DNA from: Octopus vulgaris
Taxonomy: Eukaryota
DNA length: 64,000 nucleotides
Direction: 5' to 3'
Assembly (NCBI GenBank): GCA_951406725.2
Contig: OX597819.1
Coordinates: 72,850,001-72,914,000, forward strand
The stretch's first letter is position 1. Each line of letters starts with the position of its first letter. This document shows positions 53,251 to 64,000 of the stretch, in pieces. Made by a program: the position numbers and the translations under genes. A model generated the notes under the pieces. The model saw nothing but the letters and a program-made list of their open reading frames with translations, had not been told where the DNA came from and searched no databases.

Positions 53251-54797
53251 ACTTTTAAATAAGTATCTGTTATAAGATGAGATTATTTTCAAAATAATCT
53301 CATTATTTTGAATTTTTTCCATAAACATCAAACCATGGTGTTTATTTTTAATTATTTAATTGATCAGAAACAGCCCACGAAATTCAAAGCTAGCCAGATT
53401 TCTGGATTTCGAATAAGAGGTTTGGTACTGTACCTTTTTTTTTTGGACAAATTAAGACCAGATTCATATTCTCAAATGTAAACTGATTCAGTTACTTGTC
53501 TTAGCATTGGATTATAGGGATGCACAGCTATGATATGATATACTCACCAAATCAATTGACTGAACCACCATACTTAACTAGAGCATGTCAAAAAAGTATA
53601 GATGCAGGTTACTCATCAGAGCTGTTTCCAAATATGTAAGATCTGGGGGCTTGCACACAATTAAGTATTATTCCCCTCATACAGTATATTTCTTACTTTG
53701 CCATTGTTATGTGGGTTCAAAGCATACATTACATTTCTTTCTACAGGGTGTATCTGTAGAACTTTCAGACGATGGATCTGTTGGATCTACCATTTTTTCT
53801 TTCTCATGTCTTCAATACTAAGATTAATATCTGAAGAATTACTTAAACCTGTCAGCTATTTTACTATTGAGCATAGAATCAGTGAAGACCATTGCTATCA
53901 ACTTTTTTTCACTATAGTGGAGGTCACAATCACATGTTGCCAAACTAAACATCTTAATATCTCTCCAGATAACTTTTCCCTGAGGAAGGACTATAAAAAC
54001 ACACACATACACACACCCAACATTAAATTTACCACTCCACAGTAAGTTCACAGTATTCTTTTTGTCTTTTTTAATTCAATACAGGTCTTGCTGACTCAGA
54101 CTAACATTAGTCCCTTTGGATTTTGTTTTATCACATAAACATCTTAATGGCAAATTTTGTAAAGGTAGTGAAAACTATTTCACAAATGTACCATCCTCAG
54201 GAACAGTGGAAACATATCAAGTATTTTGTTCCACATGTAGGCATCTGGGACACACAAAAGGATATGTTTTCATTTTTTGCAACAAGCATGCCAAGGAAGA
54301 TTCAAAACAACAGGCACAACTTGTACGATGGTGACACTTGTTTACAACTATCATATGCTATCAAGACAAGATATAAAAACATATATACAACAAGCTTATC
54401 AAATCCACTTACAAGATGCCGTACAGTAGGACTGAACCTAAAGATCACTGGGTTGGGAAGCAAACTTCTTAACCACACAGCCATGCCTATGCATGGAATA
54501 ATCCAAGATTTATACTTTGTGTAGATATTATAAACATACTTTGACAGTTTATAAATACATAACAGTAATAATAATTTTTTTATAACCTAGGCACCAGGGA
54601 AAGAGTTTAGTTGTTTAAGCTGACTGGTACTTTATTTCATCAACTCCAGAGGCTTGAAATAACAGCAAAGTTAAGCATGATGGGATTAAGCATGGAGAGA
54701 TAGAGAGAGAGAGAAGAAAAAGAAAAGGGAATTCAATCTAAAACCATCAACAGAATTACTTGAGATATCAAACTGACTACAGTCATGGTTGATAAGG

Positions 54798-55203
54798 GCG
54801 TCCCCAAAGTCCATCCCCTCCTCACCGTGGTGGAGATGCTGACAACGGGTAGTGTCAGAGCTATGCAGTCGGGAACTTCAGTTCCTGGTAGTGCCACCCA
54901 AGGCAGATTGGTCTGACGACGAGTGGTATTAGGGCCACAACCCGGCAGACCGGGCTCTGGTGAAAATCCACGGAGTGTCTGTTTCGGCAACCAGTGGCTC
55001 CTCGGTCGTTCTGTCCCCGCGTCTGCGGACAATCTGCGGCAAACAGGATGTCTCTACATGCGTGATTGTTGAGGACCGCTTATGAAATTCATATTCCCAC
55101 GAAACTTCTTCCACTGCCATGATTTGAGATGCCTCGAGGGTGGTGGAAGAAGCCAACTCAACCTGCCCAGGGTGAATGTCGCCACAAGTACAAGTAAGTA
55201 AGT
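54798..55203 (+). mobile_element. Young non-autonomous RTE-derived retroposon (RTE 5' leader plus 3' end) with 13-bp TSD
   Basis: TSD atggttgataagg at 54785-54797 and 55204-55216; (AAGT)n tail; CpG-rich. The leader motif cc..cgtggtggag..gagctatg..ggtagtgccacccaaggca..ggtc resembles Expander/Rex3/BovB 5' leaders as I recall them. Confidence 0.85.
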
Positions 55204-55369
55204 ATGGTTGATAAGGAACGTGAAGGACAAAAGAAACAAAAAGAAAATTCCCATGGCTTTAAAATCTCACGTAACTTTTCAATAGTAGAGGTGGCAATGT
55301 ATCAGTGGTTAGTTCACAGAGGTGAGCAAACTTTGGACATTTCACAGAGAATGGTCATAAAAAATAAAA

Positions 55370-60720: not shown

Positions 60721-61638
60721 CAGGAAGGGTGATCTTCTTCGTGTAGCGTCGTTGCATTGCCTCAAGTTCTGAGATTAATTTGACTCTAGTTGGTGAACAT
60801 AGCTGAGAGCAATAGTCAAAGTGGCTTAGAACAAGTTTCCTCCAGTGGACCATCATGGTTTCCTGATCTCTTGTTCTAAATGTTCTAAGAATCAATCCAG
60901 TCAGCCACCTCCATTTCATTGCCAATTTAGCAAGATGCACATAGAAGGATGCATCATTACTGATGTAAATGCCAGGTCTTGCACTGACTTTGCCTCTGGG
61001 AATGCAATCCCTCCAGGTCCAGTGTATTCATTGGGTACTGCATTTAGTTTTGCATGCTGAGAGCACAAAGCTTGAAGCTTTTCAGTGTTAAACTGCATGC
61101 TATTCTTTTCCACCCACTTGTATATTTCATCCATCTCACATTGCAGGTGCATAGTGCCTTCAGGGTTCTGTATTATCTGTGAGACTTTTGTATCATCTGC
61201 ATAGCTTGTGATCATGGCTCTCTGTGTGGCTGCAGGCATGTCTGAGAGGGCCATTATGAACAGTAGTGTTCTCAAAACAGTGCCTTGAGGAACACCGCTT
61301 ACAATTTCCGTATCATTGGAGGAGGTGACATTTGCTACTACCACCTGACTTCTGTCCTTCAGAGAGTCATGCAACATATTCTATGATTGACTTTATCAAA
61401 GGCCTTTGCAAAGTCGCGATGTATCACTTCCACATTTGTGTGGTTGAGCAGCTGTTTCAGCACCCAGTTATAGTGTTGTAAAAGCTGGGTCAAGCAGATT
61501 CTTCCTGGTCGGAAAGCATGTTGGGTGCCAGGCAGCATATCATTTTCTTCAAGGAAAGTGATTAGTTTACTTCTGACTATTCATTCCTTGACTTTGCTGA
61601 TGTGCAAGGTCAGGCACAGAGGTCAGTAGTTCTTGACA
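60720..61638 (-). pseudogene. CR1-group LINE reverse-transcriptase remnant
   Basis: QHAFRPGRICLTQLL, DFAKAFDKV, SGVPQGTVLRTLLF, YADDTK, NSMQFNTEK, LVLSHFDYCSQL, LEAMQRRYTK, with frameshifts and deletions. Confidence 0.92.
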
Positions 61639-61656
61639 TATATACATACACACATG

Positions 61657-61698
<42 letters not shown>

Positions 61699-62031
61699 TA
61701 TATATATATATATATACATACACGCACACATATATATATATACATATACATACACGCACACATATATATATATATACATACACACACACAAACATATATA
61801 TATATATACATACACACACACACACATATATATATATACATACACACACACACACATATATATATATACATACACACACACACACATATATATATATACA
61901 TACACACACACACATATATATATATACATACACACACATATATATATATACATACACACATATATATATATATATACATACACACATATATATATATATA
62001 TACATACACACACATACATATATATATACAT

Positions 62032-62062
<31 letters not shown>

Positions 62063-63823
62063 CACACATACATATATATATACACACATACATATATATA
62101 TACACACATATATATATATACACACACACACATATATATATATACACACATACATATATACACACACACATATATATATACACACATACATATATACACA
62201 CACACATACATATATATACACACACACGTACATATATACACACACACGTACATATATACACACACATATATATATATATATACACACACACAGATATATA
62301 TATATACACACATATATATATATACACACATATACATATATATATATACACACACATACACATATATATACACACATACATATATATATACACACATACA
62401 TATATATACACACATACATATATATATATACACACACACACACACATATATATACACATACATATATATACATATACATATATGCACTTACACACGTATA
62501 TAGACAAATATGTACATACATACATACATATATACATATATATATGCATACATACATATATACATATATATATGCATACATACATATATACATATATATA
62601 TGCATACATACATATATACATATATACATACATATATACATATATATATGCATACATACATATATATATGCATACATACATATATATATGCATACATACA
62701 TATATATATGTATACATACATATATATATGCATACATACATATATACATATATATATGCATACATACATATATACATATATACATACATATATACATATA
62801 TATATGCATACATACATATATACATATATACATACATATATATATGCATACATACATATATACATATATATATGCATACATACATATATATATGCATGCA
62901 TACATACATATATACATGTATATATGCATACATACATATATATATGCATGCATACATACATATATACATGTATATATGCATACATACATATATACATATA
63001 TATATGCATACATACATATATACATATATATATGCATACATACATATATACATGTATATATGCATACATACATATATACATATACATATGCATACATACA
63101 TATATACATGTATATATGCATACATACATATATACATATATATATGCATACATACATATATACATATATATATGCATACATACATATATACATATATATA
63201 TGCATACATACATATATACATACATACATATATATATGCATACATATATATATATACATACATGCATGTATATACATACATGCATGTATATACATATATA
63301 TATAATTATATACATATCATTTAACATCCGTTTTCCATATATAAGTATATACGTACATATATATACATATATGTATATACATATATGTATATACATACAA
63401 ATATGCATGCATATATATACATATATGCATGCATATATATACATATATGCATGCATATATATACATATATGCATGCATATATATATATATATGCATACAT
63501 ATATATACATATATGCATACATATATATACATATATGCATACATATATATACATATATGCATATATGCATACATATATATATATACATATATGCATACAT
63601 ATATATACATATATATACATATATGCATACATATATATACATATATGCATACATATATATACATATATGCATACATATATATACATATATGCATACATAT
63701 ATATACATATATGCATACATATATATACATATATGCATACATATATATACATATATGCATACATATATATACATATATGCATACATATATATACATATAT
63801 GCATACATATATATACATATATG

Positions 63824-63865
<42 letters not shown>

Positions 63866-63890
63866 TACATACATACATATATGCATACAT
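61637..63890. repeat. Compound purine-pyrimidine micro/minisatellite of about 2.25 kb
   Basis: (TA)n(CA)n blocks at 61640-62480; units of about 28 bp at 62510-63300; 22-bp units gcatacatatatatacatatat at about 63490-63830. Confidence 0.97.
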
Positions 63891-64000
63891 CATCATCACC
63901 ATCGTTTAATGTCCATTTTCCGTGCTAGCACAGGTTGGACGGTTCAACCAGGATCCAATGTAAGCACAGCAGGTCTTTCTGCAATCCAAAGTACTTTGGA
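63888..64000 (-). mobile_element. Family E tail, cut by the window edge
   Basis: catcatcatcaccatcgtttaatgtccattttcc..ggttggacggtt. Confidence 0.75.

What the first reader, a model, noticed from the sequence alone, without database searches (positions are those of the whole stretch)
54798..55203. Young ORF-less RTE-derived retroposon that begins exactly at a candidate HDV-like ribozyme
Seen: a 406-bp CpG-rich insert with a 13-bp TSD and (AAGT)n tail, no tRNA head and no long plus-strand ORF. From its first base a nested double pseudoknot can be drawn: P1 GCGUCCC(54798-804)/GAGAUGC(54833-839) with one C-A mismatch; P3 CUCC/GGUG around L3 UCACCGU(54822-828); P1.1 CA(54823-824)/UG(54840-841); a large branched P4 closed by CGGGU(54846-850)/ACCCG(54940-944) and containing GUCAGA/UCUGAC and GGGAAC/GUUCCU stems; J4/2 GCAGA (C-N-R-A, putative catalytic C54946); P2 CAAAGUCC(54805-812)/GGGCUCUG(54952-959). 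Known: HDV-like ribozymes process the 5' ends of R2, RTE and other non-LTR elements, and bipartite RTE derivatives exist. Inference: a promoter-independent parasite that excises itself from host transcripts and uses RTE machinery. Caveat: the P2/P3 junction has extra unpaired bases.
Basis: partly seen in the sequence, partly recalled or inferred. Interest (0 to 1): 0.75.

Follow-up and report, generated by a model that had tools for sequence, protein, structure and literature searches.

The report
Ribozyme-headed shortened RTE retrotransposon
This is one worn copy of an abundant 406-base jumping element made of the two ends of a longer retrotransposon in the same genome; its first 160 bases are predicted to fold into a hepatitis-delta-type self-cutting RNA that likely frees it from host transcripts, a known strategy whose cutting is untested here.

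Summary
Confirmed, with corrections. The 406-bp insert has a 13-bp TSD and many copies (1678 candidates, 40 scored). It joins bases 1-316 (5' UTR, up to the AUG) of an endonuclease+RT LINE found full-length here to that LINE's last 90 bp. 12 of 19 copies picked by their 3' end start within bases 1-5. The consensus repairs P1 to 8 of 8 Watson-Crick pairs. Across four related families, 16 of 17 changed pair states still pair, and C-N-R-A is kept. The window copy is decayed (21 changes) and fails my descriptor. Rfam finds no HDV family and cleavage is untested. The class is known (Kojima 2018; R2 SIDEs). Extra: a predicted stem pairs the AUG region with the 3' end in all four families, and the deletion junction sits in register with it. 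Energy tests of that stem are mixed. This scan noted both ideas before on other genomes.

The parts
54785..54797 (+). left target-site duplication (13 bp)
   Evidence: 100% identical to 55204-55216
54798..55203 (+). bipartite ORF-less retroposon, family A (406 bp)
   Evidence: multi-copy, 94.8% identical to the family consensus
54798..54960 (+). predicted HDV-like ribozyme; predicted cleavage 5' of G54798
   Evidence: covariation across families A-D; cleavage not tested
54798..54805 (+). P1 5' strand (8 nt)
   Evidence: 8 of 8 WC pairs in the consensus; one C-A and one G-U in this copy
54832..54839 (+). P1 3' strand
54811..54818 (+). P2 5' strand (distal CCA 54811-813, core CCCC 54815-818)
   Evidence: core C-G becomes U-A in family D, with insertions on both strands
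54819..54831 (+). P3 (UCC/GGU) and L3 (UCACCGU, 54822-828; CA 54823-824 = P1.1 5' strand)
   Evidence: U-C-A...G kept in A-D; U-U becomes A-U in D
54840..54841 (+). P1.1 3' strand (UG)
   Evidence: 2 pairs in A-C, 1 pair in D
54846..54944 (+). branched P4 with a UUCG-capped hairpin in the consensus
54945..54950 (+). J4/2 with predicted catalytic C54946
   Evidence: CAGAC / CCAAC / CUAAC / CUAAC in A-D
54951..54960 (+). P2 3' strand
   Evidence: 54951 is G in 28 of 30 copies and C here
54961..55113 (+). rest of the LINE 5' UTR, ending at the A of the LINE's likely start AUG
   Evidence: 96.5% identical to full-length copy L096 over bases 1-316
55105..55152 (+). inverted repeat across the deletion junction (55105-114 / 55143-152); predicted remnant of a 5'-3' stem of the full-length RNA
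55114..55203 (+). last 90 bp of the LINE: end of the ORF (stop 55173-175), terminal hairpin, AAGT tail
55204..55216 (+). right target-site duplication

Best explanation
This is a decayed copy of a non-autonomous retroposon made of the 5' UTR and the last 90 bases of an endonuclease+RT LINE of the same genome; its first 160 bases are predicted to fold as an HDV-like ribozyme that likely cuts the RNA out of host read-through transcripts just before the first G, and the LINE's protein likely recognises the 3' end and pastes the RNA back by target-primed reverse transcription. Shown: two-part structure, shared ends with a full-length LINE, TSDs, 5' pile-up and covariation of the fold. Inferred: cleavage, dependence on host transcription, trans-mobilisation and the RTE clade label (recalled motifs, no tree). 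Inferred with less confidence: the family arose when reverse transcription jumped across the loop of a stem that pairs the AUG region with the 3' end.
For: Shared ends: L096 starts at base 1, matches bases 1-316 at 96.5% and the last 90 bp at 89%; L092 gives Pfam Exo_endo_phos and RVT_1. 10 of 30 loci fetched with the 3' tip were LINE 3' ends with another upstream sequence. 5' ends: 12 of 19 short copies picked by the 3' tip start in bases 1-5 and 15 of 19 in bases 1-13; 7 of 10 family-A loci picked by the endonuclease start in bases 1-5; inverted arms of L047 and L091 end at bases 3 and 2; upstream flanks share nothing. Fold: consensus P1 8 of 8 WC. Against family A, families B-D show 17 distinct changed pair states; 16 still pair, 11 of 11 double changes pair; null mean 6.9, 0 of 200000 draws. 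The catalytic motif varies only at N and R. The base before G1 is G in 4 of 20 copies, so no excess of the extra G expected from capped RNA (expectation recalled from L1). Two chimeric groups that put another sequence in front of family C have lost part or all of the P1 5' strand (4 and 7 loci), as Kojima's argument predicts.
Against: No cleavage data. Rfam reports no HDV-type family on the window copy or on 5 other loci. Nested MFE z-scores are about -0.5. Departures from the usual fold: 8-bp P1 in A (6-7 typical for R2, PMC3774820 section 16), U-U at the start of P3 in A-C, a 4-bp P2 core, C rather than G at +1 in B-D, and L3 UCAAAGC in B. My descriptor misses family C, takes another J4/2 in D, passes 9 of 26 A copies and fails the window copy. 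The structure was drawn while looking at these families; the null ignores relatedness and transition bias; P4a was left out of the tally (indel in C, one A-C mismatch in D). No intact family-A ORF was seen among 150 scored endonuclease hits (longest open frame among close relatives 490 aa).
Confidence: 0.8

Rival explanations
1. Same bipartite element, but the 5' end is set by an internal Pol II promoter that starts at G1; the fold is vestigial or serves stability, translation or protein binding.
For: A start site at +1 would give the same pile-up. Dual promoter and ribozyme activity is reported for the 77-nt L1Tc/ingi 5' piece (PMC4758252, passage). Kojima writes that bipartite LINEs are very likely Pol II transcripts (PMC5786205, section 23). 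Families B-D begin with C, unusual for this ribozyme (recalled).
Against: Pairing, including the pseudoknot and the C-N-R-A motif, is kept while sequence changes. P1 begins at the first base in every family. No excess G before base 1 (4 of 20).
Confidence: 0.15
2. The pseudoknot is a chance drawing on a GC-rich 5' UTR.
For: Rfam is blank, z is about -0.5, and RNAalifold does not recover P1 or P3.
Against: 11 of 11 double changes keep pairing; 0 of 5000 shuffles match the descriptor; matched indels occur in P2 (family D) and P4a (family C).
Confidence: 0.03
3. The short copies are independent deletion products of the LINE, not a family that copies itself.
For: Family B shows many different junctions (13 direct deletions among 30 loci).
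Against: All 46 distinct family-A short copies examined align to the consensus across the 316/317 junction, each at its own site.
Confidence: 0.02

Closest known systems
Bipartite ORF-absent non-autonomous RTE elements (RTESINE1/2, WALLSI3, MAR4_MD, Bov-A; Kojima 2018, PMC5786205: first part of the text, passages and section 23 read)
   Same: 5' end plus 3' end of an RTE-type LINE, no ORF, no tRNA head, microsatellite tail. Kojima already suggests that a 5' ribozyme explains why such elements keep the LINE's 5' end.
   Different: Here the fold is drawn and supported by covariation across four families. The octopus word does not occur in that paper's main text. Supplements and Repbase were not seen, so this family may already carry a name.
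[quoted passage not shown]
   Same: Internally deleted non-autonomous elements that keep an HDV-like ribozyme; self-cleavage shown in vitro there; template jump named as one possible origin.
   Different: SIDEs are rare and confined to rDNA. This element is dispersed, abundant, and relies on an APE-type LINE.
HDV-like ribozymes of RTE and other non-LTR elements (Ruminski 2011; Webb 2009; neither held, known through PMC6765202 and PMC5786205 passages)
   Same: Nested double pseudoknot starting at the element's first base, L3 U...G, catalytic C in J4/2.
   Different: 8-bp P1, U-U at the start of P3, about 100-nt branched P4; not matched by Rfam models. Whether Ruminski's set holds a close relative could not be checked.
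NARTc and RIME of trypanosomes (named in PMC5786205 and PMC3414825 passages)
   Same: Non-autonomous derivatives that share the ribozyme-bearing 5' end of their LINE.
   Different: Ingi/L1Tc clade, 77-nt head.

Membership tests
Bipartite non-autonomous LINE derivative | 5' part matches the 5' end of an autonomous LINE | tested here: met
   bases 1-316 are 96.5% identical to L096
Bipartite non-autonomous LINE derivative | 3' part matches the 3' end of the same LINE | tested here: met
   last 90 bp, 89-98% identical to family-A LINE ends
Bipartite non-autonomous LINE derivative | no ORF, no small-RNA head | tested here: met
Bipartite non-autonomous LINE derivative | amplified as a unit with TSDs | tested here: met
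   46 distinct copies share the junction; TSD candidates of 7 bp or more in 29 of 46 with a permissive search
RTE clade (partner LINE) | APE endonuclease plus RT, short tandem-repeat tail | tested here: met
RTE clade (partner LINE) | placement in the RTE clade on an RT tree | not tested
   label rests on recalled C-terminal motifs and the tail; Pfam gave no family for the C-terminal piece
HDV-like ribozyme | nested double pseudoknot P1, P2, P3, P1.1, P4 in the HDV order | tested here: met
   family consensuses A-D; decayed in the window copy
HDV-like ribozyme | P1 of 6-7 bp starting at the cleavage site | tested here: inconclusive
   8 bp in A, 7 in B and D, 6 plus an unpaired A in C; G at +1 only in A
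HDV-like ribozyme | 3-bp P3 stacked on P2; L3 U...G | tested here: inconclusive
   U-U first pair in A-C, A-U in D; L3 U and G kept in all four
HDV-like ribozyme | catalytic C in J4/2 (C-N-R-A; motif recalled) | tested here: met
   kept in A-D with change at N and R only
HDV-like ribozyme | match to an Rfam HDV-type model | tested here: not met
   no such family at E up to 5 or 10; a library match, not a defining biochemical feature
HDV-like ribozyme | Mg-dependent self-cleavage that needs the C | not testable with these tools
   needs a bench assay
tRNA-derived SINE | tRNA head | tested here: not met
   the head is LINE 5' UTR

The most novel reading that the evidence does not exclude
These RTE RNAs pair their two ends. 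A stem joins the bases just before and in the start AUG to a coding stretch 4 nt before the terminal hairpin, about 2.6-3 kb away, and its sequence has changed in concert across families A-D. The stem parks the 5' UTR beside the site where reverse transcription starts, so copying often jumps the loop. That gives ribozyme-headed bipartite elements (family A's junction lies exactly where the stem meets a local hairpin; two family-B copies delete exactly the loop) and frequent 5'-inverted copies whose second priming falls just after the AUG. This would answer why RTE is among the few clades that produce bipartite elements.
Probability: 0.5. Interest if true: 0.65.

Novelty: new member of a known kind. 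Interest (0 to 1): 0.42.

Why it matters
It gives a well-supported, untested set of four natural HDV-like ribozyme variants that Rfam misses, with built-in compensatory changes. If the 5'-3' stem is real, it makes directly testable a question that Kojima 2018 leaves open (why few LINE clades generate internally deleted derivatives). It also bears on RTE template design, where cognate 5' and 3' UTRs flank the payload (PMC13708176, passages). Without the stem it is one more example of a known class.

Tried and rejected
Rfam: no HDV-type hit on the window stretch or on L004, L043, L139, L198, L203. Nested folding: uninformative. RNAalifold on the MAFFT alignment: P1 and P3 not recovered; C and D are out of register in P1, and D in P2. 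Free duplex test of the 5'-3' stem: the 3'-terminal window was not among the six best partners along three full-length copies, and shuffles did as well in 572, 257, 33 and 177 of 2000 (the family-A 5' window in that call was contaminated by B copies and was redone). Expression: no RNA holder listed; all runs are contigs, so RNA ends could not be read. Empty site: no joint across the insert was shown in 4 runs (24 joints not shown). Papers not held: Ruminski 2011, Webb 2009, Cerrone-Szakal 2008. Protein atlas unavailable. Paper searches listed no paper on this family's ribozyme or on RTE end pairing; the library lacks most subscription papers and Repbase. Look-up of earlier findings by sequence: none.

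Full report
Observation. The insert spans 54798-55203 between identical 13-bp repeats and ends in AAGT repeats. The window holds no tRNA gene and no ORF of 120 aa or more covers the insert. A search of the own genome (2.8 Gb; I take it for an octopus from size and a recalled repeat, untested) gave 1678 candidates, 40 scored, 91-94% identical to this copy. The 30 loci fetched are 1.1-5.5% from their consensus, mean 3.1%; the window copy is the most diverged, with 21 changes. Its 3' junction is also on a contig from a second organism label (X16). It is a fairly recent family, but this copy is worn.

What it is. A search with the 3' tip returned 40 hits, of which 30 were fetched: the window copy, 19 short copies and 10 LINE 3' ends that share only the last 90 bp. 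Walking upstream found full-length or near full-length LINE copies L096, L092 and the 5'-inverted L091. L096 begins at the same G and matches bases 1-316 at 96.5%. L092 has an APE endonuclease and an RT by Pfam. Base 316 is the A of the LINE's likely start AUG. The element is therefore the whole 5' UTR plus the last 90 bp. The RTE label rests on recalled motifs and the tail, not on a tree. All LINE copies read were broken, and no long family-A frame appeared among 150 scored hits (only best candidates are scored).

5' ends. In the sample not selected on the 5' end, 12 of 19 short copies start in bases 1-5, 15 of 19 in bases 1-13, and 4 are truncated further. Of 10 family-A loci picked by the endonuclease, 7 start in bases 1-5. 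Two inverted copies run to bases 3 and 2. Upstream positions show background composition. Over all 46 distinct short copies, 26 start at base 1, but 30 loci behind that set were chosen by whole-length score.

The fold. The consensus turns P1's C-A and G-U into Watson-Crick pairs, 8 of 8. Three related families (B, C, D; 30 of 40 hits fetched each) gave consensuses from 13, 13 and 19 copies with intact 5' ends, against 26 for A. P1 pairs in all four with different sequence. P3 is U-U, C-G, C-G in A-C and A-U, C-G, C-G in D. P1.1 has two pairs in A-C and one in D. J4/2 reads CAGAC, CCAAC, CUAAC, CUAAC. Against A, 16 of 17 distinct changed pair states still pair and 11 of 11 double changes do; a random-substitution null averages 6.9 and reached 16 in 0 of 200000 draws. 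P4a was left out of that tally (indel in C, one mismatch in D). The null ignores relatedness, and I drew the structure while seeing the families. A descriptor written afterwards hits A and B, misses C, picks another J4/2 in D, hits 0 of 5000 shuffles, passes 9 of 26 A copies and fails the window copy. R2 ribozymes usually have a 6-7 bp P1 and tolerate mismatches in P2 and P3 (PMC3774820, section 16 read), so the 8-bp P1 and the U-U are unusual but not excluding.

Mechanism. Likely sequence of events: host transcription reads through a copy; the ribozyme cuts 5' of G1; the LINE protein binds the 3' 90 nt and carries out target-primed reverse transcription, leaving a TSD. Structure, shared ends, TSDs and covariation are shown; cutting, promoter independence and trans-mobilisation are inferred (0.8). 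An internal promoter remains the main rival (0.15). The base before G1 is G in only 4 of 20 copies, which gives no sign of a copied cap (expectation recalled from L1). The window copy has a P1 mismatch and a broken P2 pair and is probably weak or inactive.

A possible 5'-3' stem. An inverted repeat spans the deletion junction (55105-114 / 55143-152). Earlier notes of this scan proposed end pairing in other genomes, so I tested it. In each family a strand ending 4 nt before the terminal hairpin pairs with the bases at the AUG: contiguous helices of 10, 8, 5 (interrupted, longer overall) and 7 bp for A-D; shuffles did as well in 46, 129, 6315 and 604 of 20000 (anchor chosen after inspection; D's AUG is not shown to be the start). 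The cognate duplex is the best in its row for A, C and D; B pairs slightly better with A, whose stem is nearly the same. In full-length L094 the AUG site is the best anchored helix, but in an unanchored energy scan internal windows beat the 3' end in all three full-length copies. In the A consensus the junction joins the last base of this stem to the first base of a local hairpin, making one continuous helix. L130 and L137 of family B join the AUG straight to the 3' strand. 5' arms end within -15 to +50 of the AUG in 24 of 29 B loci and 25 of 29 C loci; the lower bound comes from my queries, the upper does not. The script counted 8 B and 16 C loci as 5'-inverted, with TSD candidates in 5 of 8 and 10 of 16 (permissive search). 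Short templates being copied more completely could produce part of this clustering without a stem. I put the stem model at 0.5.

Comparison. Bipartite non-autonomous RTE elements are known, and Kojima links their intact 5' ends to ribozymes while leaving the cause of the clade bias open (PMC5786205; first part, passages and section 23 read; supplements not seen). Ribozyme-headed R2 SIDEs cleave in vitro (PMC3414825, passages). HDV-like ribozymes in RTEs and SINEs are reviewed in PMC6765202 (passages); the primary papers were not held. Two octopus repeat papers do not contain the word ribozyme in their main text (PMC13282606, PMC9115989). The scan index lists 29 findings with these words in at least 11 genomes and none by sequence.

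Verdict. New member of a known kind; interest 0.42. The 5'-3' stem would deserve 0.65 if true.

Noticed in passing
L113, L117, L118, L121, L126, L133-L135 (family B); 16 of L172-L200 (family C); L047, L091, L161 (family A): 5'-inverted copies are frequent: an inverted, nearly complete 5' UTR joined to a short 3' end. In B and C the inverted arm begins close to the AUG. They resemble twin-priming products (mechanism recalled from L1).
   Followed up: partly
L112, L114, L115, L122, L123, L125, L130-L132, L136-L139: Family B has 13 direct internal deletions among 30 loci with many different junctions, so bipartite forms arose repeatedly.
   Followed up: partly
L179, L182, L184, L186 (about 1100-1400) and L175, L178, L181, L185, L188, L190, L193 (about 1190-1400): Two chimeric groups place another 160-300 bp repeat in front of the family-C 5' UTR; the second has lost the P1 and P2 5' strands, so its ribozyme should be dead. 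Heads not identified.
   Followed up: partly
G000, e.g. C16:4915898, C1:21288628, C17:1306745, C3:74085309: Other LINE lineages, 30-38% identical in the endonuclease, have many copies with open frames of 1000-1123 aa; their 5' ends were not examined.
   Followed up: no
L148 (973-1029), L149 (1323-1489), L029: Tandem duplications of the first 10-120 bases at the 5' junction, consistent with repeated template jumps at the RNA 5' end.
   Followed up: no
window 54445-54490: Piece of a very high-copy short repeat upstream of the insert (depth and loose ends).
   Followed up: no
window 60916-61380 (-): Reading frame with a YADD reverse-transcriptase motif, a fragment of another LINE.
   Followed up: no
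window 61566-63928: About 2.3 kb of AT/AC-rich microsatellite.
   Followed up: no
runs X15-X20: The family is held by runs under five organism labels (A-E); a full-length copy starting at base 1 lies on one contig of X19.
   Followed up: partly
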